A DNA stretch of 64,000 nt from an uncultured Dehalococcoidales bacterium. Lineage in GTDB: Bacteria; Chloroflexota; Dehalococcoidia; GIF9; AB-539-J10. Both the position numbers and the translations under genes were made by a program. How positions within the stretch are numbered: the stretch's first letter is position 1; each line of letters begins with the position of its first letter. Positions 37,683 to 58,458 of the stretch are shown piece after piece. The DNA is taken from assembly GCA_964394145.1 (NCBI GenBank), contig CAYMVL010000033.1, positions 711-64,710 of the forward strand, read 5' to 3'. The notes beneath the pieces are model-generated. The model saw nothing but the letters and a program-made list of their open reading frames with translations. It searched no databases and had not been told where the DNA came from.

Positions 37683-37784
37683 ATGAAAGTTATTCTACTG
37701 CTTCTTTTCACAATTGGACTCATTAGCGTCGGCCTGTTGACACTCATCATTAATGTGCAATATAATGTCGTCTTTGTACTATGA
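37683..37784 (+). CDS. Possible small hydrophobic peptide (33 aa; single TM) translationally coupled to cooC
   Basis: The ORF MKVILLLLFTIGLISVGLLTLIINVQYNVVFVL ends in an ATGA overlap with the cooC ATG at 37781. The RBS is weak. The track shows a longer GTG-initiated version from 37602. Confidence 0.2.
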   Translation: MKVILLLLFTIGLISVGLLTLIINVQYNVVFVL

Positions 37785-38545: not shown

Positions 38546-38577
38546 GCTAGTAAGTAAATAAAAGGAAGGTGAACATT

Positions 38578-40417: not shown

Positions 40418-41092
40418 ATGCTGACGGTGAGGATATTGGAAGAAACAGAGATTGTCTCTCTAACTATTGATGGAAAGCAAGTAAGGGCTGCTAAGGATGA
40501 GAAGATATTATGGGCAGCTTTAGATAATGGTATCTATATTCCCAACCTCTGTGGCATTCGCGACAGGAATCAGCCTTCTGCTTCCTGTCGCCTGTGCTTT
40601 GTGGAGCTAGAAGGGAAGCGTGCTCCGGTTACAGCCTGCACCACTACCGTAGCCGATGGCATGGTAGTCAATACCAAGGGGGAGAGAGCTTCAAGGCTAG
40701 CTCGGGGCTCTTTCGAGTTATTGTTGTCCAACTTGCCTTTGGACTGTGCTCATTGCCCCAAAAGTGGTTCCTGCGAGATTCAGAAGATTGCCAAGCACTT
40801 ACGCGTGAGGCTGAACTCAAAGCGGTTCAGAAAGACGCCGCGCGACTTACCGATAGACTCCAGCAGCCCTGTATTCATCTATGACCCTAATAAATGCGTG
40901 CTGTGTGGCAGGTGCGTTTGGGTATGTGAGGAAAAACTGGGGATAGGAGCAATTGGTTTCGCTCATCGCGGCTTCGAGCGCATGGTTACGACATTTGGAG
41001 GTGAGCCAATCGGCCAGTCCAGTTGTAAAGGTTGTGGCGATTGCGTAAATGTGTGTCCCTCTGGTGCCTTGCTATTCAAGGAGAAGAATTGA
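40418..41092 (+). CDS. Standalone NuoG/HndD/FdhA N-terminal-like iron-sulfur protein (2Fe-2S plus atypical 4Fe-4S plus two ferredoxin-type 4Fe-4S clusters; no catalytic domain)
   Basis: The 224-aa product has C-x12-C-x2-C-x13-C (CGIRDRNQPSASCRLCFVELEGKRAPVTAC), a plant-type 2Fe-2S pattern. It has PLDCAHCPKSGSCEIQ (the NuoG-type HxxxCxxCxxxxxC cluster, with N in place of H). It also has CVLCGRCVWVCEE and CKGCGDCVNVCP, and ends after the ferredoxin domain. Confidence 0.7.
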   Translation: MLTVRILEETEIVSLTIDGKQVRAAKDEKILWAALDNGIYIPNLCGIRDRNQPSASCRLCFVELEGKRAPVTACTTTVADGMVVNTKGERASRLARGSFELLLSNLPLDCAHCPKSGSCEIQKIAKHLRVRLNSKRFRKTPRDLPIDSSSPVFIYDPNKCVLCGRCVWVCEEKLGIGAIGFAHRGFERMVTTFGGEPIGQSSCKGCGDCVNVCPSGALLFKEKN

Positions 41093-41146
41093 CAGGCAGT
41101 CTGTTTTTCCTGTAGACTATTGGACTTTGATTTAAGGGAGTGAAAG

Positions 41147-42028
41147 ATGGTTGTAATAGGAGAGAACATACACATCATTGCCAAGGCGGTAAATGATGCA
41201 GTAAAAGCCCGAAACCCGAGGCCGATTCAGGATTTAGCTGTGGCTCAGGCTGAACATGGAGCTGATTACATAGACTTGAATCTGGGCTACTGCAGGAAGG
41301 ATCCGTCCATCATGGCATGGGCAGTTAATATAGTTCAAGAAGTTGTTGATCTGCCCTTGTCCATAGATACTATGAACCCAGTAGCTATGGAGGAGGGTCT
41401 TAAGGCTTGCCAGAGGAGGCCTTTACTTAATTCTGCCTCAGGGAAGAGCGATTCAAAGGAAGAAATGCTTCCACTGGCTAAGAAATACGATTGCGATGTG
41501 GTCATTTCCTGCATTAACGATAAAGGCATGCCGGCTGAGGGTTATTCAAAGCTAGATAGTATTATGGATACCGTAGCCTATGCCAATGAACTGGGAATCC
41601 CAAACGAGAGGATATGGGCTGATCCCATAGTCCTTCCTGCAAGCACGGCTGGAGAGGGACAAAAGAATGCCATAGCAACTTATGAGTTTATAGAGATGCT
41701 GCCCCAGGCTTTACCAGAGACCCATTCACTGGTGGGCCTTTCCAATATATCTAATGGAGCACCTGAGGTAAATAGGCCGTATCTCAACCGTGTTTACCTT
41801 GTTATGATGGGCAGGAAGGGATTGGGCGCTTCGATCCACGATGCTCTCGACGAAAACATAATGAAGCTTGCAAAAGGTGAGGATCAGGCTCTAATTGACC
41901 TTATCTACAGGACGATGGATGGAGATGAGGGAGATTTGATGGCGCTCACCGAGGAAGAAATAAACTACATCAAGACGGTAAAGGTCCTTACGGGTGAGGT
42001 CCTTTATTCGGATGCTTGGCTTGAGTAG
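41147..42028 (+). CDS. acsE: Methyltetrahydrofolate:corrinoid/iron-sulfur protein methyltransferase (MeTr), pterin-binding DHPS-like barrel
   Basis: The product begins MVVIGENIHIIAK (compare the AcsE xxIGERIN motif) and contains ...ADYIDLNLG... as a pterin-binding TIM barrel. It is 293 aa and lies directly upstream of the CFeSP small subunit gene. Confidence 0.75.
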   Translation: MVVIGENIHIIAKAVNDAVKARNPRPIQDLAVAQAEHGADYIDLNLGYCRKDPSIMAWAVNIVQEVVDLPLSIDTMNPVAMEEGLKACQRRPLLNSASGKSDSKEEMLPLAKKYDCDVVISCINDKGMPAEGYSKLDSIMDTVAYANELGIPNERIWADPIVLPASTAGEGQKNAIATYEFIEMLPQALPETHSLVGLSNISNGAPEVNRPYLNRVYLVMMGRKGLGASIHDALDENIMKLAKGEDQALIDLIYRTMDGDEGDLMALTEEEINYIKTVKVLTGEVLYSDAWLE

Positions 42029-42042
42029 GAGGTAAAGTAAAG

Positions 42043-42975
42043 ATGGAATATAGACCGCCTGTCGAATCTAATACCGGGGTAGTCAATGAGGTAACCCTGG
42101 GCAAGCCAGGGGGGAAAACAATAAGAGTTGGAGGGGAAAATATCATGCCCTTCCATTTTTTTGATGAAGGTTCGTGGCCAAACCCTCCGGTGTTTGCACT
42201 ACAGATATTAGATAGGGAGCCGCCTCAGGATTTGCCTGGCTTTCTTTATGAGCCCTTCAAGGATGTGGTTCAGGACCCAGCCCAGTGGGCTAAGAAGGTG
42301 GAGGGATTAGACTATGTAGATGCGATCGAACTTTATCTTATGTCTACTGACCCCGCCGACCTTGATACAGGTCCTGAAAGAGCAGCTGAAGTGTCAAGAA
42401 AGGTGGCAGAGGCAACAAGCCTGCCTTTGATTATTTACGGCTGCGGCGATCCTGATAAGGACGCCAAGACTCTTCCCGCAGTCTGTGAAGCAGTTCATGG
42501 CATGCATTACTTGATAGGTCCGGTGCAGAAGGAGAACTATGAACCTTTGGGGAAGGCAATTCTAGACCATGATTTGTATCTCAGTGCTCAAACCCCAATG
42601 GATATTAATTTGCTAAAGGAATTGAATGTTAAGCTGGGACATTTTACTCCCCTGGAAAGGATAATCATTGACCCGATATCACCGGCTTTAGGGTATGGAA
42701 TAGAATACACTTATAGTCTGATGGAGCGTGTCAAGCAGCTTGGCGAGATTACTAAGGATAAGACGACCATGATGCCTATGATTGCTGATTTTGCTACCGA
42801 GGTTTGGAGGACTAAGCAGGCCAGGGAAAGTGAACAGCAGGGTTTGGTCTGGGAGGCTATGACCTCGTTTATGCTTCTTCAAGCCGGGGCGAATATTGTC
42901 ACACATCGATATTACAAGTCGATAAAGTTGGTAAAAGAAATGTATGAAAGCGAGGTGCAACAATGGCAGAAGTAG
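42043..42975 (+). CDS. cdhD: Corrinoid iron-sulfur protein small subunit (ACDS delta subunit)
   Basis: The 310-aa TIM-barrel protein lies in the conserved position before cdhA. Its size and composition match AcsD/CdhD. It has no Fe-S motif, as expected for this subunit. Confidence 0.7.
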   Translation: MEYRPPVESNTGVVNEVTLGKPGGKTIRVGGENIMPFHFFDEGSWPNPPVFALQILDREPPQDLPGFLYEPFKDVVQDPAQWAKKVEGLDYVDAIELYLMSTDPADLDTGPERAAEVSRKVAEATSLPLIIYGCGDPDKDAKTLPAVCEAVHGMHYLIGPVQKENYEPLGKAILDHDLYLSAQTPMDINLLKELNVKLGHFTPLERIIIDPISPALGYGIEYTYSLMERVKQLGEITKDKTTMMPMIADFATEVWRTKQARESEQQGLVWEAMTSFMLLQAGANIVTHRYYKSIKLVKEMYESEVQQWQK

Positions 42976-45272
42976 TTAAGGAACTCACCAGAAAGGAAGA
43001 AGAAGTCCGCCATCTGATCAGGGCGGAAATTCCCTGGGAGCCTGTCGGTCCCACTCCGATGCCCGAGATTCCTACTCTGAGATCTTGGGATATGAGGTTG
43101 CTTAAGACGTATAGCCCGTGGTACGCCCCATTCTGTGACCTCTGTTGCTTTTGCACCTATGGTAAATGTGACCTCTCTCAGGGAAGGAGAGGAGCCTGCG
43201 GGCTGGATATAGCCACTCAACAGGCAAGATTTATTCTTATCGCCTGTCTCATGGGATGCTCAGCTCATGCTGGCCATGCTGGCCATATTGTCGAGTATTT
43301 GATTGATAAGTATGGGCCTGATAAGAAAATTGATCTGGGTACATATATCGAGCTTACAGCACCAAATATTATGACGGTGACTGGCTTGAAACCCGAGACC
43401 CTGGGTGATCTTAAGACTGTCATAGAGTATGTATACAAGGAAGTCACCCACCTTCTGGATTCTACACATTTTGGGCAGGAAGGAAGTTACCTGGATTATG
43501 AGTCTAAAGCGTTGCACGCTAGTATGCTGGACCACGTTGGTATGGAGGTTGCCGACATCGCTCAGATTGTGGGGTTCAATTTCCCCACTTCTGTAGCTGA
43601 TACGCCTCTGGTAGATATGGGATGGGCCTCAGTTGATGAGTCTAAACCGGTGATATTGCTTGTCGGGCATAATCCAGCGACTTCAACTACTATTGTGGAT
43701 TACTTGAGGGAGAATGACTTTTATGACAAGGTCGAGATAGCCGGCATCTGCTGCACGGCACTTGAAACCACAAGATATTCTGACAGGGCAAAGGTCATAG
43801 GTCCTTTGTCCAGGCAGCTTTTCTACGTCAGGACAGGAATTGCCGATGTTATCGTAACTGACGAACAGTGTATCAGAACTGATATGCCTATACAGGCAGA
43901 TGCTGTCGGATCAAGGGTTATTGCCACTCTGGATAAAGCCATGTATGGCCTTGAGGATGCTACCGAATGGGATACAGAAGAAATCGTGAAACAGATGGTG
44001 GAGGATAAGAAACATTTCGCTATCTTAGATACTAGGAAGGCGGCGGAGGTGGCGACGAAGGTAGCTATGGCAATTGCTCCCCAGAGGACAAAGAAGTGGC
44101 TAACTAAAGATGAAGCAATAGAGCTTTCAAAGAAATGTACCAATTGTGGAGTGTGCGAGTGGGTATGCCCCAACCTTATTAAGATAGGCGATGGTATAAC
44201 TGAACTTGCGAAAGGCAATGTTGAATTGCTGGCAAAGCAGTTCAATGAATGTATTGGTTGTGGTAAATGTGACCAAGAATGCCCCTTGAAAGTTCCCATC
44301 TTTAAGATAATGCAGGCAGCAGCCAGCATGGAGACGTGGAAGATAAGAGCTGGGCGTGGCGCAGTAATGGACACCGAAATAAGAAAGGTGGGAGCACCTA
44401 TAACTCTTGGCACAATCCCTGGCGTTCTGGCCTTCGTTGGCTGTAGCAACTATCCTGATATCGATGATGTTGCCGATATGGTGTATGAATTTGCCAAGAG
44501 GAAATATATTGTGACTCTAACTGGATGCGCGGCTATGGTCGCCGGAATGAAGAAATTTGAGGACGGCAAGACTGTATACGAGCTATTTCCTCCCGATTTT
44601 GATGCTGGAGGGGTAGTCAACATTGGCTCCTGTGTATCTAATGCTCATATTAGTGGGGCTGCAATAAAGATAGCCAATATCTTTGCTGCGTTACCGTTGC
44701 GCGCTAATTACGAGGTGATGGCGGATTATGTCCTTAACCGAGTAGGTGCCTGTGGCGTAGCCTGGGGAGCTATGTCTCAGAAGGCGGCTTCCATCGGCAC
44801 AGGTTTTAACAGGTTGGGTATCCCGGTGCTACTGGGACCGCACTCCTCCAAGTATAGAAGACTGTTCCTTTCCAGAAAGGAAGAAGACGACTGGAGCGTC
44901 ATGGACGCCAGGAAAAGGGAAATTGTTGACAGCGGGGAGCCCTCTCCCGAACACCTGGCTTATGTGGCAGAGACGAAAGAGAAGGCAATGGTGATGATAC
45001 CCAAGCTATGTATAAGAAAGAACGATACCCCGCAAGGCAGGTCGATAAAGCTCAATCACTATATCTCTTTATACAAGAAATATATGGGCCCTGGGCTTCC
45101 TGAAGATATCCACCTGTTTATCAGGAGGGATGCTGATATTCCTCTGGTTTATAAGAAAGAAGTAAGAGAATACCTGAAGCAAATTGACTGGCAGCCTAAG
45201 GATCCTGTGGGACTTCCAACGTTAATCGGGACTTATCCCACTAAGGTTCCTTTAGATGCTGTTATACATTAA
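42963..45272 (+). CDS. cdhA: Ni-CO dehydrogenase catalytic subunit, archaeal ACDS alpha type (with inserted 2x[4Fe-4S] ferredoxin domain)
   Basis: The 769-aa product has the N-terminal motif PFCDLCCFCTYGKCDL (the B/D-cluster Cys motif shared with CdhA). The VLLVGHNP region follows. An internal ferredoxin insert (CTNCGVCEWVCP...CIGCGKCDQECP) is characteristic of archaeal CdhA and absent from bacterial CooS/AcsA, which are about 630 aa. Confidence 0.8.
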   Translation: MAEVVKELTRKEEEVRHLIRAEIPWEPVGPTPMPEIPTLRSWDMRLLKTYSPWYAPFCDLCCFCTYGKCDLSQGRRGACGLDIATQQARFILIACLMGCSAHAGHAGHIVEYLIDKYGPDKKIDLGTYIELTAPNIMTVTGLKPETLGDLKTVIEYVYKEVTHLLDSTHFGQEGSYLDYESKALHASMLDHVGMEVADIAQIVGFNFPTSVADTPLVDMGWASVDESKPVILLVGHNPATSTTIVDYLRENDFYDKVEIAGICCTALETTRYSDRAKVIGPLSRQLFYVRTGIADVIVTDEQCIRTDMPIQADAVGSRVIATLDKAMYGLEDATEWDTEEIVKQMVEDKKHFAILDTRKAAEVATKVAMAIAPQRTKKWLTKDEAIELSKKCTNCGVCEWVCPNLIKIGDGITELAKGNVELLAKQFNECIGCGKCDQECPLKVPIFKIMQAAASMETWKIRAGRGAVMDTEIRKVGAPITLGTIPGVLAFVGCSNYPDIDDVADMVYEFAKRKYIVTLTGCAAMVAGMKKFEDGKTVYELFPPDFDAGGVVNIGSCVSNAHISGAAIKIANIFAALPLRANYEVMADYVLNRVGACGVAWGAMSQKAASIGTGFNRLGIPVLLGPHSSKYRRLFLSRKEEDDWSVMDARKREIVDSGEPSPEHLAYVAETKEKAMVMIPKLCIRKNDTPQGRSIKLNHYISLYKKYMGPGLPEDIHLFIRRDADIPLVYKKEVREYLKQIDWQPKDPVGLPTLIGTYPTKVPLDAVIH

Positions 45273-45372
45273 TCTTGCTGCTTTGGAGCAAAAGGGAGAG
45301 GGAAAGAGGTAGCAAAAATTGAATACGATTTTATTTGGTTTTCAGGCTTAAGTCTGAAAAAGGAGGATAAAG

Positions 45373-45930
45373 ATGGCGATGATACCGACTCATAGGGTAA
45401 ACGTCCTGACAGGGATAAAGTCAGCGAGGATCGTAGAGGATGCCTCTCAGTACGCTGGCTACATCCGAACGGCAAGAAGGCCTCTTCTTGTGATTGGGCC
45501 CATGCTCGAAAAATGGTCGCTTGATGGAAAGTTCGCAATCGAATATGCGCTTGAGATAGCTAAGTCGGGCAATATTCCTGTATGTGCTACGGCGACTACC
45601 AGAAAGAAGGTCATGGAACTGGGTGTGGAGCCTGATAGCGCGCTTGACGCCGTGGAAGTAGTGAACCACCTCAAAGACCCTGGATGGCAAGGGGTCAAGA
45701 AACAGGGAAATCACGATTTGGTTATCTTCTTTGGCATCAGGAGCGACATGGAAGAGCAGATGCTTTCTGTGCTGAAACATTTCGCTTATAAACATTTAAA
45801 GACCATGACTCTGGACAAGTATTATTTCCCCCATGCCAATTATTCCCTTCCCAATATGCCCAAAACTGAAAAGTGGCAGGCATTCTTAGAGGATTTGATA
45901 GCTAATTTGCAGGCAAAGTCTAAAAAATAA
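45373..45930 (+). CDS. cdhB: ACDS epsilon subunit (CdhB-like)
   Basis: The 185-aa ORF sits between cdhA and cdhC, exactly where archaeal cdhB sits. Its size matches. It has no Fe-S motifs, as expected. The assignment is by synteny and size only. Confidence 0.55.
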   Translation: MAMIPTHRVNVLTGIKSARIVEDASQYAGYIRTARRPLLVIGPMLEKWSLDGKFAIEYALEIAKSGNIPVCATATTRKKVMELGVEPDSALDAVEVVNHLKDPGWQGVKKQGNHDLVIFFGIRSDMEEQMLSVLKHFAYKHLKTMTLDKYYFPHANYSLPNMPKTEKWQAFLEDLIANLQAKSKK

Positions 45931-45944
45931 GGAGGCATAAATAT

Positions 45945-47180
45945 ATGGAATGGCATTCAGATGTTGGACCACAATATGAGGGTGAGGTTATCAGGAAGGC
46001 GGATATGTGGATTGAGTTTGGCGGTCCTAAGGTGCCCGCAGGGAGCAAACTGGAGTTTTGTCGCTTACGGAAGCCGGAGCAAATTGAGCACGAAAAGGTT
46101 GAGCTTATAGGTCCCGATATAGATACAATGGAGGAAGGGGGAAGCTACCCTCTCGGTATCTTAGTTGAAATCTATGGAGAGCAACTTGATGAGGATGCAG
46201 TACCAATCCTTGAGCGAAGAATTCACATGTTCTCAAGCTATATCGAGGGCTGGTACCATATGAATCAGAGAGGGGATATATGGATAAGGTTGAACAAGGA
46301 CTGTGGGAAGAGGGGATGGAAGTCATTAAAGGAGTATGGCGAAATACTCAATTTCCTCTACACCTCTGAGATGGATATAATACAGAAGATTCAAGTTACG
46401 CTTATTACTGATCCGGAAGCAATACAGAAGCTGTATCCTGAGGCTAAAGCAGCCTACGAAGCTAGAGATGCCAGGGCGTTAACCCTGAATGATGAAGATG
46501 TGGATACGTTTTATGGCTGTGTGCTTTGCCAGAGCTTCGCACCCACGCATATTTCCATCATAACCCCTAATAGAATCGCCAATTGTGGGGCCATAAATTG
46601 GTTCGACGGCAGGGCAGCAGCTAAGATCGATCCCGAGGGACCGATATTTGCCGTGCCCAAGGGTAAACTGATTGACCCCATAAGGGGTGAATATGAGGGG
46701 GCAAATAAGACAGAGTATGAGAGGTCTTTAGGGACTTATGATAGGGTTTATCTCTATAGCGCCTTCGAGCATCCTCATACTTCCTGTGGCTGCTTTGAAG
46801 CTATTGTCTTCTATATTCCTGAAGTTGACGGCTTTGGGATAGTGGATAGAGAATTCAAAGGTCCAACTGTAACCGGAGAGACTTTTTCGCACATGGCCGG
46901 TGACACATCGGGCGGAAGGCAGGTGGAGGGTAGATTGGGCACTGGCCTGGAGCAAATGCGATCTCCAAAATTTATCCAGGCAGACGGAGGAAGAAGGAGG
47001 GTGGTCTGGATGCCTAAGGTAATAAAGGAAAGATACAGGGAACCATTTGAAAAAGACGGGGTATACGATAAGATACCCACAGAAGAAGATGTTAAGAACA
47101 CAGATGAACTACTGGCTTATCTGGAGGAGCATCAGCATCCGTGGATAAAGGGCGAAGTTGAGCTTCCGGAGTTGCCTTAG
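45945..47180 (+). CDS. cdhC: Acetyl-CoA synthase catalytic subunit, short archaeal-type (ACDS beta, A-cluster)
   Basis: The product contains YGCVLCQSF...ANCG (Cys ligands of the [4Fe-4S] part) and HTSCGCFE (the Cys-Gly-Cys motif that binds the proximal and distal Ni). It is 411 aa and lacks the long N-terminal domains of the bacterial AcsB, which is about 730 aa. Confidence 0.8.
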   Translation: MEWHSDVGPQYEGEVIRKADMWIEFGGPKVPAGSKLEFCRLRKPEQIEHEKVELIGPDIDTMEEGGSYPLGILVEIYGEQLDEDAVPILERRIHMFSSYIEGWYHMNQRGDIWIRLNKDCGKRGWKSLKEYGEILNFLYTSEMDIIQKIQVTLITDPEAIQKLYPEAKAAYEARDARALTLNDEDVDTFYGCVLCQSFAPTHISIITPNRIANCGAINWFDGRAAAKIDPEGPIFAVPKGKLIDPIRGEYEGANKTEYERSLGTYDRVYLYSAFEHPHTSCGCFEAIVFYIPEVDGFGIVDREFKGPTVTGETFSHMAGDTSGGRQVEGRLGTGLEQMRSPKFIQADGGRRRVVWMPKVIKERYREPFEKDGVYDKIPTEEDVKNTDELLAYLEEHQHPWIKGEVELPELP

Positions 47181-47225
47181 TCTTGTTTTTTGGAAATAAA
47201 GTTTAAGTAGTAAGGAAGGTTTGTT

Positions 47226-48635
47226 ATGCCAGTTTCAGGAACCGCGTTGATAAAGATGCTTCCTAACAGGAAGGGGTGTAAGGATTGTGGTTTTCCTACC
47301 TGCTTTGCATTTGCTATGAAGTTAGCTTCTGGAGGGACTACTGTAGATAAATGTCCTTATCTTGACGAAGATACCAAAGCTAAAATAAATGACCTTCTAG
47401 CACCTCCGCAAAAGCTTGTAACCGTAGGCTCAGGAGATAATAAGTACGAAATTGGGAACGAAGAGGTAGTCTATCGCCATGACAAGACTTTCGTGCATGA
47501 GCCTGCCATTGCTTTGCTTGTGTCGGATAAGGAGAATGACGAGGAAATAGAGAGAAAGATAAAGAAGATACAGGAAGTGCACTATCCTTGGGTGGGCTTG
47601 ACTCTGCATGCAGACCTTCTAGCTCCTCACTTTGAATCGGGGGACAAAACGAAATTTTTGGCTTTGGTAAAGAGACTCTGCGATTCTACAAATGCAGGTA
47701 TGGTTCTTATCTCGGAAGACACGGACGTTCTATTTGCGGCCAGGGATATCTGCGGCGATAGAAATCCTTTGATTTATCCCATAACAAAGGAGAATATAGA
47801 TATTGCGATACCGAAACTCAAGGAGAAACCCACCGCAATAGGGATTCGTGCAGAGGGCGTAGAACAACTCATACCTTTGACTACTAAGCTGAAGGATGCT
47901 GGGCTTGACCATCTTGTTATGGACCCTGGCTCCAAGGGTATAATTGAGGCACTTAGGGATCAAACGTTTATTAGGAGGGCAGCTTTAAAAACCGGCTTCA
48001 AAGCTCTCGGTTATCCAACCATAGCTTTCCCGTGTTTCATAAACAAAGATGGGCTAAAGGAAATGCTGGCTGCCTCTATGTTTGTAGATAAGTATGCCGG
48101 TATCATCGTCCTTTCCGATCTCAATCCTAATTACATGTTGCCCTTGCTGGTGCAACGGCTCAATATTTATACCGACCCACGCTTCCCCATGTCTGTGGAG
48201 CAGAAATATTATGAGATAGGACAGCCTACTGAGGAGTCCCCTGTTCTCATGACTTCGAATTGGTCTTTGACGTATTTCGTCGTGGCATCAGCCATTGAGG
48301 CTACTAAAGTGCCTTGTTTCCTTCTGGTGCAAGATGCGGAGGGGCTTGGTGTTCTCACTGGTTGGGCTGCGGGTAAGATAAGCGGAGATACTGTGGGCAA
48401 GCTTGTTAGGACCTGTGGTATTGAAGAGAGAGTGAAGCACAGGCAGCTGGTGATTCCAGGAAGAATAGCTCGAATTTCGGGTGAGACTATGGACGCTCTG
48501 GATTGGAAATGGGAAGTGACAGTTGGGCCCAGGGAATCAACCGCAATAGGAGCTTTCCTCCCTAAATATGCCAAAGAACTTAAGGAAAAGATAGCTGCCG
48601 GCAAGGGAATTCCAGCAGAAGTGGAAAATGAGTGA
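47226..48635 (+). CDS. cdhE: Corrinoid iron-sulfur protein large subunit (ACDS gamma)
   Basis: The N-terminal motif CKDCGFPTCFAFAMKLASGGTTVDKCPY (C-x2-C-x4-C-x16-C, a [4Fe-4S] site) is typical of AcsC/CdhE. The product is 469 aa. A TIM barrel plus a B12-binding-like region follow. Confidence 0.8.
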   Translation: MPVSGTALIKMLPNRKGCKDCGFPTCFAFAMKLASGGTTVDKCPYLDEDTKAKINDLLAPPQKLVTVGSGDNKYEIGNEEVVYRHDKTFVHEPAIALLVSDKENDEEIERKIKKIQEVHYPWVGLTLHADLLAPHFESGDKTKFLALVKRLCDSTNAGMVLISEDTDVLFAARDICGDRNPLIYPITKENIDIAIPKLKEKPTAIGIRAEGVEQLIPLTTKLKDAGLDHLVMDPGSKGIIEALRDQTFIRRAALKTGFKALGYPTIAFPCFINKDGLKEMLAASMFVDKYAGIIVLSDLNPNYMLPLLVQRLNIYTDPRFPMSVEQKYYEIGQPTEESPVLMTSNWSLTYFVVASAIEATKVPCFLLVQDAEGLGVLTGWAAGKISGDTVGKLVRTCGIEERVKHRQLVIPGRIARISGETMDALDWKWEVTVGPRESTAIGAFLPKYAKELKEKIAAGKGIPAEVENE

Positions 48636-49182
48636 CCAGCAATCTATTGGAGAGCAAATAGATGATATCTTAACACCAAATAAAAGGGAGAGGAAGAATC
48701 TCATTTCCCTGCTGCAGCAAGTCCAGGACAGACTGGGTTATCTTCCCCGCGAAGCAATGCTAGAGGTAAGCAAGTTCCTCGGCGTAGCAGAAGTTCAAGT
48801 ATTTTCAGTAGCCACTTTTTATAACCAATTCAGAATGAAACCTGTAGGCAGGTATCCTGTCGAGGTCTGCATGGGTACTGCCTGCCATTTGAAAGGCGGG
48901 CAATTCATTCTAGAGGAATTTGAGAGGCAGCTGGGAATCAAGGTGGAGGAGACCACAACGGATGGCAATTTCAGCCTGCATAGGGTTGCCTGTATGGGTT
49001 GTTGTATGCTGGCTCCTGTGGTGAAGATGGGTGATAGGGCCCCGGTGATAAGAATTGGCAATAAACTCTATCCCAAGATGACACCTTTTAAGGTGGAAGA
49101 GGTTTTAATACCTTATAGAGCGGAAATTCGGCAAAAGCCAGGAGAAGAGCAAGTCGGAGCCGGGAAGCAAGAGAAACGTTGA
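48628..49182 (+). CDS. NuoE/HoxE/HndA-like thioredoxin-fold [2Fe-2S] protein
   Basis: The product contains CMGTACHLKGG and ACMGCCMLAPVV (the C-x4-C...C-x3-C pattern of the 24-kDa subunit). It is 184 aa and overlaps the downstream NuoF-like gene by 4 nt. Confidence 0.8.
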   Translation: MSDQQSIGEQIDDILTPNKRERKNLISLLQQVQDRLGYLPREAMLEVSKFLGVAEVQVFSVATFYNQFRMKPVGRYPVEVCMGTACHLKGGQFILEEFERQLGIKVEETTTDGNFSLHRVACMGCCMLAPVVKMGDRAPVIRIGNKLYPKMTPFKVEEVLIPYRAEIRQKPGEEQVGAGKQEKR

Positions 49183-51101
49183 CTTTAGCTGAGATCAAGG
49201 AAAAAGCCAGGGTGGAATGGGACGATTTACGGAGGGGTACTTATGTTACTATTGGCACAGCCACTTGTGGTCAGGCAGCAGGTGCCCTGGATACTGTCGC
49301 AGCTTTTGAGCAAGAGCTAAAGAAGCGTAATGCGGAGGCTAAGGTGGTTGAAGTTGGTTGCCTGGGATTATGTTATGCTGAGCCTCTAGTTACCATATTT
49401 AAGCCTGAATCTTTCGCTGTCGTGTATTGTAACGTCACGCCGCAGCTTGTCCCTCGGCTTATTGATGGTTACGTCCTAGGTGATGACCCCTGCCTTGAGC
49501 TTGCTTTAGGAACGCTTGATGGCGGAGAAGAAGGGGAAGCCCCTTATATCCCGGAATTGGCTAGATTTGAGAAGGAGTTGCGCATTGTAATGCGTCACTG
49601 TGGCTACATTGACCCGAAAAATATAAACCATTATATAGCTAATGGTGGTTATAGTGTCCTGGACAAGGCTCTTCATATGGAGCCTGAGGAGATAATTGGA
49701 GAAATTAAGCAGTCGGGTCTTCGGGGGCGGGGGGGGGCCGGGTTTCCTACGGGGCTGAAATGGGAGATAACTCGCGGTCAGTTGGCCGCACCTAAATATG
49801 TGGTATGCAATGGAGACGAAGGTGATCCCGGTGCTTTTATGGATCGCATTGTTTTGGAATCTGACCCGCATCAAGTTCTCGAGGGAATGATAATCGCGGG
49901 CTATGCCATAGGTGCTAAGGAGGGTTATATATATATTCGTGCTGAATATCCTCTGGCTATTGAGCGGGTGCAAATTGCCTTGAATCAAGCTAGGGAATTA
50001 GGTTTGCTTGGTAAACATATTCTGGGCACTGATTTTAGCTTCGATATTAATATAGCAGCAGGCGCCGGAGCTTTCGTTTCTGGTGAGGAAACAGGTCTGA
50101 TGGCAGCTATCGAAGGAAGGGAAAGCACCCCAAGGCCAAGGCCGCCTTACCCGGCCGAATCTGGATTGTGGGGCAAACCTACTGTTCTCAACAATGTAAA
50201 GAGTTTTTCGAATGCCACAGTGATAATGGATAAGGGAGCGAGCTGGTTTTCGTCTATTGGCACTGAACGAAGCACAGGGACGGCGTTATTTAGCCTAGCA
50301 GGTAAGATCAAGCGGCCAGGGCTTTGCGAAGTGCCTATGGGAACAACAATACATGATATTGTTTTCGATATTGGAGGCGGGATCCTCGATGATAGAGAAT
50401 TCAAGGCGGTGCAAATTGGGGGGCCGTCTGGAGGAATGATACCGGCAAGCCTGCAAGATACGCCAGTAGATTTCGATTCGTTGAAGTCAGTTGGCTCGAT
50501 GATGGGCTCAGGCGGATTCATTGTCATGAGCGAGGATGACTGCGTTGTTGATGCCGCTCGTTTCTTCCTTGATTTCACGACAAAGGAATCCTGTGGGCAA
50601 TGTACGCCATGTCGCCTCGGGACTTTGCAAATGCTTAGAACGCTTGAGGACATCACTGCCGGTAAGGGCAAAATTGAGGATATTGATTTTCTTCTTGAGC
50701 TAGCCGAGGATGTCAGAGACAGCGCCCTTTGCGCCCTGGGACAGACGGCTCCTAATCCCGTCCTTACCACAATTCGCTATTTCAGGGACGAATATGAAGA
50801 GCATATTCTACAAAAGAAATGCCGGGCAAAAGTCTGTACTAACCTTACTGCATACTATATTCTGCCTGACAAATGCGAGAGGTCTTGTGAGCATTGTGTG
50901 CTTACATGCCCAACTGAGGCGATTAAAGGAGGTACAGGAGAAGTTAAGCACATTGAGCAGGATAAGTGTGTTAACTGTGGCACTTGCCTGGACGTGTGCC
51001 CTCCTGAATATGACGCTGTAGTAAAATTGTCGCCTATTACCGAACTTCCGCCAGAAGATAAAGAAGCTAAGGAACGAGGCATAGCAGAACAGGTGGTATA
51101 A
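49179..51101 (+). CDS. NuoF/HndC/HydB-like NAD(P)H-binding flavoprotein with N-terminal thioredoxin-like [2Fe-2S] domain and C-terminal 2x[4Fe-4S] ferredoxin domain
   Basis: The product has GLRGRGGAGFPTGLKW (the FMN site). It has CGQCTPCRLGT (a NuoF-type N3-like cluster motif), CERSCEHCVLTCP and CVNCGTCLDVCP. The N-terminal part contains CGQAAGALD...CLGLCYAEP. The product is 640 aa. Confidence 0.85.
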   Translation: MTLAEIKEKARVEWDDLRRGTYVTIGTATCGQAAGALDTVAAFEQELKKRNAEAKVVEVGCLGLCYAEPLVTIFKPESFAVVYCNVTPQLVPRLIDGYVLGDDPCLELALGTLDGGEEGEAPYIPELARFEKELRIVMRHCGYIDPKNINHYIANGGYSVLDKALHMEPEEIIGEIKQSGLRGRGGAGFPTGLKWEITRGQLAAPKYVVCNGDEGDPGAFMDRIVLESDPHQVLEGMIIAGYAIGAKEGYIYIRAEYPLAIERVQIALNQARELGLLGKHILGTDFSFDINIAAGAGAFVSGEETGLMAAIEGRESTPRPRPPYPAESGLWGKPTVLNNVKSFSNATVIMDKGASWFSSIGTERSTGTALFSLAGKIKRPGLCEVPMGTTIHDIVFDIGGGILDDREFKAVQIGGPSGGMIPASLQDTPVDFDSLKSVGSMMGSGGFIVMSEDDCVVDAARFFLDFTTKESCGQCTPCRLGTLQMLRTLEDITAGKGKIEDIDFLLELAEDVRDSALCALGQTAPNPVLTTIRYFRDEYEEHILQKKCRAKVCTNLTAYYILPDKCERSCEHCVLTCPTEAIKGGTGEVKHIEQDKCVNCGTCLDVCPPEYDAVVKLSPITELPPEDKEAKERGIAEQVV

Positions 51102-51862
51102 TGGCTAGGAAAATCGTTTCTACTGGAAGAGGAGGATCAGGGAAATCAACTTTTGTCGCCTTGATTAGCAAGTACTTGAAACCACCAACGTTGCTTATTG
51201 ACCTCGACCCTGACCTTAGCCTTGCTGATATGCTCGGCATGGATTTTCGTAAGGAAGGGAAAAGGACGGTTTGCGAGGCACTTTATGATGTTGTTGAAAA
51301 AAGAAAAAGCAATGTAAGCCCAACAATCACAACGCACGAGATGATGGAAGGCATGCTATGGAGCGATTGCTTGTACGAAGGGGAAAAAACGGACATCATT
51401 AGCCTTGGAACAAAGTTAACTGAAGGCTGTCTTTGCGCTCCGGACGAGATACTCAGGAGAGCAATTCCCAAGCTCGCTAAGAATTACGCCAACCTTGTAA
51501 TAGACTCTCCAGCTGGAGTGGAACATCTGAATCGGAATGTAGTGTCGGACGTAAATGACCTTTTCGTTATATGCGACCCCTCTGATAAATCTCTGAAGCA
51601 CATACCGAGGATAAAAGAGATTATAAAGCAGGTGGGGATTAAGTATGGCCATCTGTATCTTGTGGCGAACTATGAGTGTAATGGAGAGGCAGAAAATTAT
51701 CTGCAGCAGGTAGGTGAAGTCTATTTGGGCAAGGTAGAGTATGATGCCGAACTGGCACAGTATAATCTGGAAGGCAAGTCGCTTCTGGATTTGCCGGAGG
51801 ATTCAGTCGCTTCTTTGTCAGTAAAAAGAATTTTAATTAAAGCCGGTTATGAGATTAGGTAG
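51101..51862 (+). CDS. cooC: CooC/AcsF-family ATPase, copy 2
   Basis: The product begins MARKIVSTGRGGSGKSTF and contains ...GCLCAPDE (CxC). It is 253 aa and is a paralog of copy 3. Its start is shared with the NuoF-like stop region. Confidence 0.75.
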   Translation: MARKIVSTGRGGSGKSTFVALISKYLKPPTLLIDLDPDLSLADMLGMDFRKEGKRTVCEALYDVVEKRKSNVSPTITTHEMMEGMLWSDCLYEGEKTDIISLGTKLTEGCLCAPDEILRRAIPKLAKNYANLVIDSPAGVEHLNRNVVSDVNDLFVICDPSDKSLKHIPRIKEIIKQVGIKYGHLYLVANYECNGEAENYLQQVGEVYLGKVEYDAELAQYNLEGKSLLDLPEDSVASLSVKRILIKAGYEIR

Positions 51863-52122: not shown

Positions 52123-52293
52123 ATGAGAGAGAAGCGACTATATTGGTGCCCTTTTTGCGAGCGTAACGTTTCCTTATGGAGGACAAAAGATAATAAACTA
52201 ATTTGTCCACGGTGTGGTAGAGAGGTGGTTTACATAACAAACGACGGTCGTATCGGGGCTATCAGAGGGAAGGAGGGGATTGCAAATAAATAG
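52123..52293 (+). CDS. Tiny zinc-ribbon protein (56 aa, two CxxC pairs)
   Basis: The product is MREKRLYWCPFCERNVSLWRTKDNKLICPRCGREVVYITNDGRIGAIRGKEGIANK. It is below the 60-aa ORF-track cut-off. It lies between two cooC paralogs, and its 3' end overlaps the start region of cooC copy 3. Confidence 0.4.
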   Translation: MREKRLYWCPFCERNVSLWRTKDNKLICPRCGREVVYITNDGRIGAIRGKEGIANK

Positions 52294-52297
52294 TAAG

Positions 52298-53077: not shown

Positions 53078-53117
53078 CCAGTGATTTATTCTTATAAAAA
53101 GCCAGGAGGTATGGTCA

Positions 53118-53849: not shown

Positions 53850-53912
53850 TTTGAGGCCCTGTTGTGACTCCGGCCATAAGGCGGTGAGGGGAGTAGCAAG
53901 CAGAAGGAAAGC

Positions 53913-54782: not shown

Positions 54783-54812
54783 ATGCTATGATGGTATAAT
54801 AATAGGAATAAT

Positions 54813-55973: not shown

Positions 55974-55995
55974 GATTAATAAGCGAAAGGAATTT

Positions 55996-56919: not shown

Positions 56920-56941
56920 GTCTTGGAAAAAAGGAGGCATA

Positions 56942-58449: not shown

Positions 58450-58458
58450 GGTATAGAA

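What the first reader, a model, noticed from the sequence alone, without database searches (positions are those of the whole stretch)
40418..51101. Split NADH-dehydrogenase-like electron module (NuoE plus NuoF plus a catalytic-domain-less NuoG N-terminal fragment) embedded in the CODH/ACS operon
A 224-aa protein carries only the NuoG/HndD/FdhA N-terminal Fe-S domains: a 2Fe-2S cluster, an atypical HxxxC-type 4Fe-4S cluster with N replacing the His, and two ferredoxin clusters. It lies between fhs and acsE. NuoE-like and Trx-NuoF-like genes lie immediately after cdhE. No hydrogenase large domain, molybdopterin domain or formate dehydrogenase domain is present in the cluster. The three genes together would form an NAD(P)H-FMN to Fe-S wire with no catalytic partner of its own. 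This suggests a dedicated NAD(H)-linked electron input or output for the CODH/ACS, or a confurcating partner. The physiological electron carriers of archaeal-type ACDS in bacteria are unknown.
Basis: inference. Interest (0 to 1): 0.65.

Follow-up and report, generated by a model that had tools for sequence, protein, structure and literature searches.

The report
NADH-ferredoxin module inside CODH/ACS operon
Three genes spread through a Dehalococcoidia carbon-fixation (Wood-Ljungdahl) operon encode a known type of NADH- and ferredoxin-linked iron-sulfur module with no catalytic domain. It most likely wires the CO dehydrogenase/acetyl-CoA synthase to NADH, but a hydrogenase partner encoded elsewhere is not excluded.

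Summary

- **The three genes.** 40418-41092 encodes a 224-aa protein carrying only the NuoG/HydA/FdhA N-terminal Fe-S domains. 48628-49182 is NuoE-like. 49179-51101 is NuoF-like, with an extra N-terminal thioredoxin-like domain and a C-terminal 2x[4Fe-4S] domain.
- **No catalytic partner nearby.** No hydrogenase or formate dehydrogenase lies in the 64-kb window or in the 10 kb downstream.
- **Family.** The trio is a BfuABC (HydABC-type, electron-bifurcating) module with a minimal, HoxU-like A subunit. Orthologues at 55-69% identity form contiguous nuoE-nuoF-G operons in other Dehalococcoidia.
- **Link to CODH/ACS.** nuoE-nuoF sit between cdhE and cooC with overlapping codons. The cdhE-nuoE junction recurs in nine lineages. 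Nitrospirota independently place a Bfu set after a bacterial-type CODH/ACS.
- **Why the partner is unresolved.** The G gene always follows fhs (or fhs-folD), even where cdh is absent. A sister lineage carries a Tat-less [NiFe]-hydrogenase right after nuoF-cooC. Another locus places the trio beside Hdr genes.

This is a new variant of a known kind (the predicted "Codh-Bfu") and is moderately interesting.

The parts
37737..37766 (+). Promoter-like site (TTGACA-18-TATAAT, 12 of 12) 15 nt upstream of cooC. Probable start of the operon.
   Evidence: sequence. A consensus match only; not tested.
37781..38545 (+). cooC-like Ni-insertion ATPase (254 aa)
   Evidence: Pfam CbiA/ParA/ArsA_ATPase. The cooC-fhs-G string is conserved in loci of types A and B.
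38569..40341 (+). fhs, formate-tetrahydrofolate ligase (590 aa)
   Evidence: Pfam FTHFS, E 5e-210
40418..41092 (+). G224: minimal BfuA/HoxU-like Fe-S connector subunit. It carries a [2Fe-2S] site (C45, C57, C60, C74), a [4Fe-4S] site (L106 at the His position, C110, C113, C119) and two ferredoxin-type [4Fe-4S] sites (C160/163/166/170 and C203/206/209/213).
   Evidence: Pfam. Best solved relatives are the N-terminal ~207 residues of HydA1 8a6t_A (4.1e-46), FdsA 6tg9_A (9.4e-45), NiFe-HydA 7t2r_A (2.5e-39) and HoxU 5xf9_B (9.6e-24). Cysteine conservation in 120 homologues.
41147..42028 (+). AcsE-like methyltransferase (Pterin_bind)
42043..42975 (+). CdhD/AcsD-like small corrinoid-protein subunit (310 aa)
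   Evidence: Pfam CdhD, 1e-33
42963..45272 (+). CdhA, archaeal-type CODH alpha subunit with ferredoxin-like 2x[4Fe-4S] insert (residues ~389-444)
   Evidence: Pfam Prismane plus Fer4. End-to-end match to ACDS alpha 8riu_A, E 2e-254.
45373..45930 (+). CdhB, ACDS epsilon subunit
   Evidence: Pfam CO_dh, 1.1e-26
45945..47180 (+). CdhC, short archaeal-type acetyl-CoA synthase subunit (411 aa, without the bacterial AcsB N-terminal domain)
   Evidence: Pfam CdhC plus ACS_CODH_B_C. Contrast the 732-aa AcsB with CODH_A_N in Nitrospirota locus L026.
47226..48635 (+). CdhE/AcsC-like large corrinoid Fe-S protein subunit
   Evidence: Pfam FeS plus CdhD, 2.8e-84
48628..49182 (+). BfuC/HydC/NuoE-like [2Fe-2S] subunit (184 aa). 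Its start overlaps the cdhE stop by 8 nt.
   Evidence: Pfam 2Fe-2S_thioredx, 7.9e-47. Best solved relative is HydC 8a6t_C, 2.6e-41. Junctions.
49179..51101 (+). BfuB/HydB/NuoF-like FMN/NAD(H) subunit (640 aa). It has an N-terminal Trx-like [2Fe-2S] domain, the N3-type [4Fe-4S] site and a C-terminal 2x[4Fe-4S] domain. It overlaps nuoE by 4 nt and cooC2 by 1 nt.
   Evidence: Pfam. Best solved relatives are 9bov_B (2.3e-214), NfnB 9n5u_B, NiFe-HydB 7t2r_B, StnB 8oh5_B and HydB 7q4v_B, aligned over residues 23-608. Complex I NuoF aligns only over 130-541. Conserved Cys sets.
51101..51862 (+). Second cooC-like ATPase (253 aa), translationally coupled to nuoF
   Evidence: Pfam AAA_31/CbiA. The same position is occupied in L006-L008, L096 and L101.
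52280..59852 (+). Rest of the Wood-Ljungdahl supercluster (context and possible alternative partners): a third cooC-like gene, metV, metF, a cNMP-binding histidine kinase, a second metF, two response regulators, two hdrC-like genes and hdrB.
   Evidence: Pfam; gene calls on identical contigs
59871..64000 (+). 5' part of a 1486-aa GltD-like/HdrA-like fusion protein that runs off the window. On identical contigs it is followed by mvhD (FlpD), a second metV-like gene and DUF3786.
   Evidence: Open frame seen; full gene and downstream genes in L006/L007

Best explanation
**What the genes encode.** G224, the NuoE-like protein and the NuoF-like protein are the A, C and B subunits of one BfuABC (HydABC-type) flavin/iron-sulfur complex. 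By analogy with solved Bfu enzymes:
- The B subunit binds NAD(H) at FMN.
- FMN, the adjacent [4Fe-4S] cluster and the [2Fe-2S] cluster of the C subunit form the bifurcating 'flavobicluster'.
- Ferredoxin docks at the C-terminal domains of B and C.
- The A subunit is only a four-cluster wire. It carries mid-potential electrons between the core and a third redox partner.

**Proposed partner.** Here the A subunit has no catalytic domain, so the third partner must be another protein. The most likely partner is the archaeal-type CODH/ACS encoded around it, probably through the ferredoxin-like clusters of CdhA. The carbonyl-branch redox step would then be coupled to NAD(H) plus ferredoxin together instead of ferredoxin alone. 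That step is CO2 to bound CO for acetyl-CoA synthesis, or the reverse during acetyl-CoA cleavage.

**Shown versus inferred.**
- Shown: domain and cluster content, Bfu-type architecture, orthology to contiguous three-gene operons, and conserved gene order.
- Inferred: complex formation in this organism, bifurcation, and the CODH/ACS partnership.

**Confidence.** Identity as a Bfu-type module: about 0.85. CODH/ACS as the partner: about 0.4, which is the score given.
For: **Bfu identity**
- The NuoF-like protein aligns from residue 23 to 608 with B subunits of solved bifurcating enzymes at E 1e-185 to 2e-214. Plain NuoF covers only residues 130-541.
- It keeps the N-terminal Cys set C30/C61/C65/C105 in nine Dehalococcoidia-type sequences, and both C-terminal CxxCxxCxxxC motifs in all 14 sequences compared.
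- PMC9304861 states that non-bifurcating homologues lack these extra clusters.

**One module**
- Orthologues of all three proteins form contiguous nuoE-nuoF-G operons. G is 56-69% and NuoF 55-60% identical to the window proteins (L015-L018, L093, L099).
- G and NuoF identities to the window track each other across loci.

**CODH/ACS link**
- In the window, cdhE/nuoE, nuoE/nuoF and nuoF/cooC overlap by 8, 4 and 1 nt.
- Across nine lineages the cdhE-nuoE junction ranges from a 4-8-nt overlap to a 5-nt gap: window, L009, L013, L014, L094, L096, L098, L101.
- nuoF is followed by cooC in the three lineages where the sequence continues.
- The full fhs-G-acsE-cdhDABCE-nuoEF string recurs in seven lineages at 62-78% G identity.
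- In Nitrospirota, a bacterial-type acsD-acsC-acsB-acsA set is followed by nuoE, nuoF, an Fe-S protein and a NuoG-like gene, and the operon then ends. No other catalytic gene is present (L026; L023, L025, L030 and L032).

**Literature**
- Codh-Bfu was predicted from CODH genes lying between bfuB and bfuA in Firmicutes (PMC9304861).
- nuoEF was noted beside CODH/ACS in candidate phylum NPL-UPA2 (PMC6305446).
Against: - The link is gene order only. No fusion of NuoE with a Cdh protein appears among the 120 best NuoE homologues.
- G always follows fhs or fhs-folD. It stays with folD-cooC-fhs where cdh is not adjacent (L091, L011, L100).
- The G/acsE spacer carries a promoter-like match. The 'sandwich' may therefore be two operons placed side by side.
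- The trio exists as a free operon with no CODH nearby in at least six lineages.
- L014 has nuoE after cdhE but no nuoF.
- In L101/L102 a [NiFe]-hydrogenase follows nuoF-cooC.
- In L017 the trio sits next to gltD/hdrA-hdrC-hdrB.
- The standard CO2/CO potential (-520 mV, Table 1 of PMC9304861) lies below ferredoxin. The energetic benefit is not obvious unless the effective potential of the channelled carbonyl is much higher.
Confidence: 0.4

Rival explanations
1. The trio is the NAD(H)/ferredoxin (diaphorase/bifurcating) part of a [NiFe]-hydrogenase whose catalytic subunits are encoded elsewhere in this genome. This would be a NiFe-Bfu (HydABCSL-like) or Hox-like enzyme that supplies NADH and reduced ferredoxin to the pathway from H2.
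For: - In L101/L102 the string is cdhE-nuoE-nuoF-cooC, then a [NiFe] small subunit (308 aa, no twin-arginine motif), a large subunit (519 aa), hycI and metV-metF.
- This large subunit is very widespread in Dehalococcoidia; the 120 best hits are 73-92% identical.
- Three further pairs of NuoE and hydrogenase representatives share a contig length (16857, 41249, 71151), so each pair probably sits on one contig.
- JGI names G224 'bidirectional [NiFe] hydrogenase diaphorase subunit'.
- NiFe-HydABCSL subunits 7t2r_A, B and C are among the best solved matches of all three proteins.
- A bifurcating hydrogenase is the standard reductant supplier of acetogens (established knowledge).
Against: - There are no hydrogenase genes in the 64-kb window, in the 10 kb downstream or in any other G-containing locus, and no remnant in the 417-nt gap after cooC2.
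- None of the listed hydrogenase representatives lies on a contig with the length of the window's contigs. This is a weak test, because only the 120 best representatives are shown.
- In L101 a cooC gene separates nuoF from the hydrogenase genes, and no G gene lies in that locus.
- The hydrogenase resembles group 1 enzymes rather than Hox or the A. mobile HydSL.
Confidence: 0.22
2. The trio is a free-standing redox hub. It would be a HoxEFU-like NADH/ferredoxin complex whose connector subunit docks transiently on several enzymes or reduces a soluble carrier, placed in the Wood-Ljungdahl cluster only for co-regulation.
For: - Contiguous nuoE-nuoF-G operons have no catalytic gene in the operon, and their neighbours are unrelated from locus to locus (L016, L018, L093, L099).
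- The G gene occurs in three different genomic contexts.
- The His ligand of one cluster is variable (H, L or Q) in the family.
Against: - A Bfu core needs a third, mid-potential couple to make NADH-to-ferredoxin electron flow feasible (PMC9304861). No soluble carrier gene is conserved nearby.
- Tight translational coupling to cdhE and cooC is not expected from co-regulation alone.
Confidence: 0.13
3. The trio feeds the methylene-tetrahydrofolate reductase/heterodisulfide-reductase-like complex encoded downstream (MetFV, HdrCB, GltD-HdrA fusion, MvhD). It would form a two-stage bifurcating machine like BamB-I of class II benzoyl-CoA reductase, where BamGHI are the Bfu subunits.
For: - nuoF is followed within 2-9 kb by metV, metF, a second metF, hdrC, hdrB, gltD/hdrA and mvhD on the same strand.
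- In L017 the contiguous trio is followed after about 900 nt by gltD-like, hdrA-like, hdrC and hdrB genes.
- Bam-Bfu is a precedent for a short BfuA working with HdrA-like modules (PMC9304861).
Against: - The GltD-like domain of the 1486-aa protein already offers a likely NAD(P)H entry site.
- Nitrospirota loci and most contiguous operons have no metF or hdr nearby.
- Two cooC genes and a 417-nt gap separate nuoF from metV.
Confidence: 0.1
4. G224 plus NuoEF are the electron-transfer subunits of an NAD-linked or bifurcating formate dehydrogenase whose molybdopterin subunit (FdhF-type, without the N-terminal Fe-S domains) is encoded elsewhere.
For: - G directly follows fhs or fhs-folD in all 11 type A and B lineages. 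FDH is the one Wood-Ljungdahl enzyme missing from the cluster.
- G224 matches the FdsA N-terminus at 9.4e-45.
- In L093 the trio lies next to selA and 6 kb from an FDH operon.
- Fdh-Bfu enzymes with a separate pterin subunit exist (PMC9304861).
Against: - No headless FDH gene lies next to G in any of the roughly 18 stand-alone loci. After a gene fission the catalytic part would normally lie adjacent.
- The FDH in L093 is a Tat/cytochrome b (FDH-N) type on the opposite strand.
- Dehalococcoidia NAD-type FDHs carry a fused, only ~35% identical G domain (L046-L083).
- nuoEF sit with cdhE, not with fhs.
Confidence: 0.07

Closest known systems
BfuABC family (HydABC-type electron-bifurcating enzymes; Schut et al. 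2022, PMC9304861; structures 7p5h, 7q4v, 8a6t, 7t2r, 8oh5, 9n5u, 9bov)
   Same: - Three subunits with the same domains: a NuoE-like C subunit, and a NuoF-like B subunit with an N-terminal [2Fe-2S] domain and a C-terminal 2x[4Fe-4S] domain.
- An A subunit built from the NuoG/HydA N-terminal clusters.
- Very strong matches to solved members.
   Different: - The A subunit stops after the fourth cluster, so there is no H-cluster, pterin or GltD domain.
- The three genes are not contiguous.
- The His ligand of one A cluster is Leu here.
Predicted Codh-Bfu (Type 2 Bfu) of Acetohalobium arabaticum and Clostridium cellulovorans (PMC9304861)
   Same: - A short BfuA, BfuB and BfuC with CODH genes lying between the bfu genes.
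- The proposed third substrate is CO/CO2.
- The enzyme is likewise uncharacterised.
   Different: - There the CODH is a stand-alone CooS-type enzyme with two accessory Fe-S subunits. It was reported only in Firmicutes, from 4 sequences.
- Here the enclosed genes are a complete archaeal-type CODH/ACS (CdhABC, the corrinoid protein and AcsE) in Dehalococcoidia.
- The BfuB clade was not determined here.
HoxEFU diaphorase of NAD-reducing [NiFe]-hydrogenases, and the NiFe-HydABCSL of Acetomicrobium mobile (5xf9, 7t2r)
   Same: - HoxU is a stand-alone ~240-aa NuoG N-terminal homologue like G224.
- HoxE/HoxF correspond to NuoE/NuoF.
- A sister lineage (L101) has [NiFe] subunit genes after nuoF-cooC.
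   Different: - There are no hoxYH genes in the window.
- G224 is closer to the HydA1 and FdsA N-termini (about 1e-45) than to HoxU (about 1e-23).
- The L101 hydrogenase is group-1-like, not group 3d.
BamGHI of class II benzoyl-CoA reductase (Bam-Bfu)
   Same: A short BfuA-type subunit plus a BfuBC core working within a larger multi-module complex that also contains HdrA/MvhD-like subunits. Hdr-like genes lie in the same cluster here.
   Different: There is no tungsten AOR-type BamB and no aromatic pathway. Association with Hdr is seen only by proximity (the window and L017).
N-module of respiratory complex I (NuoEFG)
   Same: Homologous FMN/NADH site and Fe-S chain.
   Different: - NuoF lacks the N- and C-terminal cluster domains present here.
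- NuoG has a large C-terminal domain that is absent here.
- There are no nuoA-N genes nearby.
Archaeal acetyl-CoA decarbonylase/synthase (ACDS, CdhABCDE; 8riu, 9c0q, 3cf4)
   Same: - CdhA matches end to end (2e-254) and includes the ferredoxin-like insert.
- CdhB and a short CdhC are present.
   Different: - The host is bacterial and an AcsE-type folate methyltransferase is present.
- Bfu genes are interleaved. Archaeal ACDS is known to use ferredoxin, with no NuoEF-type partner (own knowledge).

Membership tests
BfuABC (HydABC-type bifurcating) family | B subunit with a NuoF-type FMN/NAD(H) domain and the N3-type [4Fe-4S] (B1) cluster | tested here: met
   Complex1_51K 2.6e-45 and NADH_4Fe-4S 6.7e-33. 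C472/C475/C478/C518 are invariant in 14 sequences.
BfuABC (HydABC-type bifurcating) family | B subunit carries the additional N-terminal and C-terminal Fe-S (or Zn) sites that non-bifurcating NuoF/FdsB/HoxF-type homologues lack (PMC9304861) | tested here: met
   - The alignment to 9bov_B, NfnB, HydB and StnB spans residues 23-608, whereas complex I NuoF spans only 130-541.
- Conserved sets: C30/C61/C65/C105, H542/C548/C553, C566/570/573/577 and C597/600/603/607.
BfuABC (HydABC-type bifurcating) family | C subunit: NuoE-like thioredoxin-fold [2Fe-2S] protein (C1 cluster) | tested here: met
   2Fe-2S_thioredx 7.9e-47. Best solved hit is HydC 8a6t_C at 2.6e-41. The Cx4C...Cx3C motif is visible in the sequence.
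BfuABC (HydABC-type bifurcating) family | A subunit with the NuoG/HydA N-terminal cluster chain ([2Fe-2S], His-ligated [4Fe-4S], ferredoxin-type clusters) | tested here: met
   - Pfam; alignment to HydA1 residues 3-207.
- All cluster cysteines are conserved.
- Caveat: the His ligand is Leu106 here and is variable in the family.
BfuABC (HydABC-type bifurcating) family | The three subunits form one complex | tested here: inconclusive
   Orthologues are encoded as contiguous nuoE-nuoF-G operons in other Dehalococcoidia. In the window the genes are 7.5 kb apart. There are no physical data.
BfuABC (HydABC-type bifurcating) family | Tightly coupled reduction or oxidation of NAD and ferredoxin with a third substrate | not testable with these tools
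   Needs enzyme assays.
Codh-Bfu as predicted in PMC9304861 | CODH genes lying between bfu genes in one gene string | tested here: met
   The order is G224-acsE-cdhDABCE-nuoE-nuoF-cooC, conserved.
Codh-Bfu as predicted in PMC9304861 | CooS-type monofunctional CODH plus two accessory Fe-S subunits (six subunits A-F); BfuB in clade 49; Firmicutes | tested here: not met
   - The CODH here is CdhA-type within a full CODH/ACS.
- The host is Dehalococcoidia.
- BfuB clade membership was not tested.
HoxEFUYH (group 3d NAD-reducing [NiFe]-hydrogenase) | hoxY/hoxH catalytic genes together with hoxEFU | tested here: not met
   There are none in the window or in the 10 kb downstream. The hydrogenase in sister locus L101 is most similar to group 1 enzymes.
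Complex I N-module (NuoEFG) | NuoG with a C-terminal molybdopterin-like domain; adjacency to nuoA-N | tested here: not met
   G224 ends after the fourth cluster. No nuo membrane-arm genes occur in the window.
NAD-dependent formate dehydrogenase (FdsGBA / Fdh-Bfu) | Molybdopterin catalytic domain, fused to the A subunit or encoded adjacent to it | tested here: not met
   No Molybdopterin or Molydop_binding domain occurs in the window or its flank. The rest of the genome was not available.
Archaeal-type CODH/ACS (ACDS) | CdhA with ferredoxin-like insert, CdhB epsilon subunit, and a short CdhC without the AcsB N-terminal domain | tested here: met

The most novel reading that the evidence does not exclude
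The Bfu trio is physically attached to the archaeal-type CODH/ACS of Dehalococcoidia. This would make a bifurcating/confurcating acetyl-CoA synthase in which the carbonyl-branch electrons are shared between NAD(H) and ferredoxin. In the sister lineages that insert a Tat-less [NiFe]-hydrogenase into the same gene string, the same assembly would be driven directly by H2, analogous to the hydrogen-dependent CO2 reductase. This would halve the reduced-ferredoxin demand of acetyl-CoA synthesis, or ease acetyl-CoA cleavage, in energy-starved subsurface bacteria.
Probability: 0.3. Interest if true: 0.75.

Novelty: new variant of a known kind. Interest (0 to 1): 0.5.

Why it matters
**The open question.** How bacteria that carry an archaeal-type CODH/ACS move electrons in and out of it is not known. 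Dehalococcoidia with this pathway are abundant in sediments and the deep subsurface, where the energy margin is very thin.

**If the link is real.**
- Part of the most reducing step of the Wood-Ljungdahl pathway would be paid for with NADH rather than reduced ferredoxin.
- That would change energy budgets for acetogenesis and acetate oxidation in these organisms.
- It would add a complete CODH/ACS to the list of enzymes served by the Bfu bifurcation core.

**Testable handles.** The finding provides a conserved, compact gene set: G224, NuoE, NuoF and CdhABC. It also provides natural comparison loci: free trio operons, a hydrogenase-containing variant and an independent Nitrospirota version.

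**If the link is not real.** The trio is one more ordinary Bfu module, and the interest is modest.

Tried and rejected
- **Split or truncated gene.** I tested whether G224 is a fragment of a fused FdhA, HydA or NuoG. This is rejected. All homologues of 56% identity or more are stand-alone proteins of 213-242 aa. Fused forms begin only at 44% identity or less.
- **Hydrogenase or FDH in the window.** All long ORFs were scanned with Pfam and none qualifies. The apparent ORFs at 60066-60971 and 61004-61552 (minus strand) are antisense to the 1486-aa GltD/HdrA gene that runs off the window. They are not on record as genes.
- **Hydrogenase remnants.** No remnant of the L101-type hydrogenase genes lies in the 417-nt cooC2-cooC3 gap.
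- **Rosetta-stone fusions.** No fusion of NuoE with Cdh proteins appears among the 120 best NuoE homologues.
- **Unbiased survey of cdhE neighbourhoods.** How many archaeal-type cdh clusters lack the Bfu genes could therefore not be measured.
- **Contig-length fingerprinting.** I used this to ask whether a hydrogenase lies on the window's ~230-kb contig. No match was found, but only 120 representatives are listed, so the result is not conclusive.
- **Literature.** No held paper describes this arrangement in Chloroflexi. Adam et al. 2018 on CODH/ACS evolution is not held.
- **RNA genes.** tRNA and Rfam scans of the window found nothing.
- **Structure prediction of sub-complexes.** This was not attempted, because the tool folds single chains only.

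Full report
**1. What is in the sequence**

The region is one long plus-strand gene string. A perfect sigma-70-type promoter match (37737-37766) lies just upstream of its first gene. The gene order, from Pfam, is:

| Coordinates | Gene |
|---|---|
| 37781-38545 | cooC |
| 38569-40341 | fhs |
| 40418-41092 | G224 |
| 41147-42028 | acsE-like |
| 42043-42975 | cdhD-like |
| 42963-45272 | cdhA |
| 45373-45930 | cdhB |
| 45945-47180 | cdhC |
| 47226-48635 | cdhE/acsC-like |
| 48628-49182 | nuoE-like |
| 49179-51101 | nuoF-like |
| 51101-51862 | cooC |
| 52280 onwards | a third cooC-like gene, metV, metF, a cNMP-binding histidine kinase, a second metF, two response regulators, two hdrC-like genes, hdrB |
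| 59871 to window end | 1486-aa GltD/HdrA fusion, running off the window |

- CdhA matches archaeal ACDS alpha subunits end to end (8riu_A, E 2e-254) and keeps the ferredoxin-like insert.
- CdhC is the short archaeal form.
- The source is a Dehalococcoidia metagenome-assembled genome. Identical proteins lie on contigs of 210-230 kb from soda-lake-type samples, and named relatives are Dehalococcoidia.

**2. The observation checked**

- **G224** has Fer2_4, NADH-G_4Fe-4S_3 and a two-cluster ferredoxin domain, and nothing else. Residues 12-221 align with residues 3-207 of the bifurcating hydrogenase subunit HydA1 (8a6t_A, 4.1e-46). They also align with the FdsA N-terminus (9.4e-45), NiFe-HydA (2.5e-39) and, more weakly, HoxU (9.6e-24).
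- **The NuoE-like protein** is closest to HydC.
- **The NuoF-like protein** aligns over residues 23-608 with B subunits of solved Bfu enzymes: 9bov_B (2.3e-214), NfnB, NiFe-HydB, StnB and HydB. Complex I NuoF covers only residues 130-541.
- **No catalytic subunit.** No hydrogenase, FDH or molybdopterin domain exists in the window or in the next 10 kb.
- **One detail is wrong.** The His ligand of the HxxxC cluster is replaced by Leu106, not by Asn. Among 120 homologues that position is H in 67, L in 35 and Q in 10. A His inside the CAHC motif is present in 113 of 120.

**3. What the three genes are**

By the criteria of Schut et al. 2022 (PMC9304861), bifurcating Bfu enzymes share an invariant BfuBC core. 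Its B subunit carries cluster sites that plain NuoF, FdsB and HoxF-type proteins lack. The A subunit only delivers electrons from a third substrate. The window's NuoF-like protein has these extra sites:

- the N-terminal set C30/C61/C65/C105;
- H542/C548/C553;
- two C-terminal CxxCxxCxxxC motifs.

The N-terminal set is conserved in the nine Dehalococcoidia-type sequences; the other sites are conserved in all 14 sequences compared.

Cryo-EM work defines the bifurcation site as FMN plus the B1 [4Fe-4S] and C1 [2Fe-2S] clusters. [quoted passage not shown]

G224 is therefore a minimal BfuA. Short BfuA-type subunits are already known: HoxU, HytD, BamI, and the BfuA of Wor-, Por- and Mbh-Bfu. The last two occur in Dehalococcoides.

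The three separated genes belong together. Other Dehalococcoidia encode orthologues as contiguous nuoE-nuoF-G operons (L015-L018, L093, L099). In these, G is 56-69% and NuoF 55-60% identical to the window proteins, and the two identities track each other.

**4. Gene neighbourhoods**

Stand-alone G proteins (56% identity or more) occur in three settings.

| Type | Arrangement | Loci |
|---|---|---|
| A | cooC-fhs-(folD)-G-acsE-cdhDABCE-nuoE-nuoF | window, L009, L013, L094, L096, L098, L010 (partial), L014 (nuoE but no nuoF) |
| B | folD-folD-cooC-fhs-G, then unrelated genes | L091, L011, L100 |
| C | contiguous trio with no catalytic gene in the operon | L015-L018, L093, L099 |

More distant homologues (44% identity or less) are fused to FDH/NuoG-type molybdopterin, [FeFe] H-cluster or GltD domains.

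- In the window, cdhE/nuoE, nuoE/nuoF and nuoF/cooC overlap by 8, 4 and 1 nt.
- Across the nine cdh-linked lineages, including L101, the cdhE-nuoE junction ranges from an 8-nt overlap to a 5-nt gap.
- nuoEF is thus embedded between CODH/ACS structural genes and a CODH maturation gene.

**5. Independent associations**

- In Nitrospirota (L026, and L023, L025, L030, L032 by similarity), a bacterial-type acsD-acsC-acsB-acsA set is followed directly by four genes. These are nuoE, a 779-aa nuoF with CBS domains, a 196-aa Fe-S protein and a 673-aa NuoG-like protein. The NuoG-like protein has a molybdopterin-like domain but no Molydop_binding domain. The operon then ends.
- The literature predicts a CooS-type Codh-Bfu in Firmicutes.
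- It also notes nuoEF next to CODH/ACS in candidate phylum NPL-UPA2 (PMC6305446).
- It notes more loosely that nuo genes are often found with Wood-Ljungdahl genes (PMC8671834).

**6. Evidence pointing elsewhere**

- **A hydrogenase in a sister lineage.** L101/L102 carry NuoE 61% identical to the window's. Their string reads dxs | acsE-cdhDABCE-nuoE-nuoF-cooC-[NiFe] small subunit-large subunit-hycI-metV-metF-DUF3786, followed by a 1365-aa StnA-like protein. No fhs-G lies upstream.
  - The small subunit has no twin-arginine motif.
  - Both subunits are most similar to group 1 enzymes.
  - The large subunit is widespread in Dehalococcoidia; the 120 best hits are 73-92% identical.
  - Matching contig lengths suggest at least three more contigs that hold both this hydrogenase and a cdh-type NuoE.
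  - The window has no such genes and no remnant of them.
- **Hdr genes.** In L017 the contiguous trio is followed by gltD/hdrA-hdrC-hdrB. These are the same kinds of genes that lie 7-9 kb downstream in the window.
- **The fhs link.** G stays with fhs in type B loci, and the G/acsE spacer holds a 10-of-12 promoter match. The type A 'sandwich' may partly reflect two operons placed side by side. However, in L013 G overlaps acsE by 4 nt.

**7. Mechanism and weighing**

I take the trio to be a Bfu-type NAD(H)/ferredoxin module (about 0.85). Its most likely third partner is the CODH/ACS (about 0.4). Three arguments support this partner:

- nuoEF is translationally coupled on both sides to CODH/ACS genes.
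- The junction is conserved in every cdh-linked locus seen.
- An independent lineage, with a different type of CODH/ACS and no other catalytic gene in the operon, shows the same association.

Energetically, the standard CO2/CO couple (-520 mV) lies below ferredoxin (Table 1 of PMC9304861), so simple CO oxidation does not need bifurcation. The overall acetyl-CoA-forming or -cleaving couple is far more positive, around -200 mV. That figure comes from my own knowledge of the methanogen literature and was not checked here. Sharing the electrons between NAD(H) and ferredoxin could therefore be advantageous in either direction. This step is inference.

The rivals are a hydrogenase partner encoded elsewhere (0.22), a free hub (0.13), the MetFV/Hdr complex (0.10) and an FDH (0.07).

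**8. Novelty**

- The subunit types, the family and even a CODH-linked member are already described or predicted.
- What is new is a conserved version wrapped around a complete archaeal-type CODH/ACS in Dehalococcoidia. The comparison set is also new: free trio operons, a hydrogenase-containing variant and a Nitrospirota analogue.
- No held paper describes it.
- I rate it a new variant of a known kind, with interest 0.5.

Noticed in passing
window 40418-41092, residues 106 and 112: The His ligand of the HxxxC [4Fe-4S] site is Leu here. It varies across 120 close homologues (H 67, L 35, Q 10). A His inside the CAHC motif, absent from HydA, FdsA and NuoG, is present in 113 of 120. It might serve as an alternative ligand, or the cluster might be three-Cys ligated.
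   Followed up: partly
window 37737-37766 and 41089-41118: A perfect TTGACA-18-TATAAT promoter match lies 15 nt upstream of cooC. A 10-of-12 match lies exactly in the 54-nt spacer between G224 and acsE, which is where the gene string is broken in type B and L101-type loci.
   Followed up: partly
L101 13267-16244 (also L102): A [NiFe]-hydrogenase is embedded in a Dehalococcoidia Wood-Ljungdahl cluster between cooC and metV. Its subunits resemble periplasmic group 1 enzymes, yet the small subunit has no twin-arginine signal. The large subunit is 73-92% identical across the 120 best database hits.
   Followed up: partly
L101 18727-20489: A 1365-aa protein combines a NuoG-like N-terminus, a GltD-like NAD(P)H domain and an FDH-like molybdopterin part (StnA-like architecture). 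It lies in the same cluster as nuoEF and is another possible A subunit for that core.
   Followed up: no
L026 2420-12272 (also L023, L025, L030, L032): Nitrospirota operon: acsD-acsC-acsB-acsA-nuoE-nuoF, then a 196-aa Fe-S protein and a 673-aa NuoG-like protein that lacks the Molydop_binding domain. The nuoF product carries two C-terminal CBS domains. This is an independent CODH/ACS-Bfu arrangement.
   Followed up: partly
window 54813-57819: A two-component system sits between two metF paralogues inside the Wood-Ljungdahl cluster. It comprises a cyclic-nucleotide-binding histidine kinase and two single-domain response regulators. A histidine kinase and response regulator also lie upstream of cooC in L096.
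   Followed up: no
window 59871-64000 (continues in L006 10904-15364): A 1486-aa fusion of a GltD-like domain with HdrA-like domains is followed by mvhD, a second metV-like gene and DUF3786. The listed minus-strand ORFs 60066-60971 and 61004-61552 are antisense artefacts inside it.
   Followed up: partly
L094 9662-9928: In one type A lineage, fhs is reduced to an 88-aa called fragment, while the G gene just downstream is intact.
   Followed up: no
L014 14088-16659: In a MAG labelled Syntrophales, nuoE follows cdhE but no nuoF follows it; unrelated genes come next. L013 and L014 carry Deltaproteobacteria and Syntrophales labels, yet their cluster proteins are 51-80% identical to the Dehalococcoidia ones. 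This indicates either horizontal transfer or mis-binning.
   Followed up: no
window 28144-29541: A 465-aa plus-strand ORF has no Pfam match at E <= 0.001.
   Followed up: no
window 51863-52279: An unusually long (417 nt) gap separates the second and third cooC-like genes. It holds a 54-aa ORF that is also called on the identical contigs L006-L008. In L101 this position is taken by the hydrogenase genes.
   Followed up: partly
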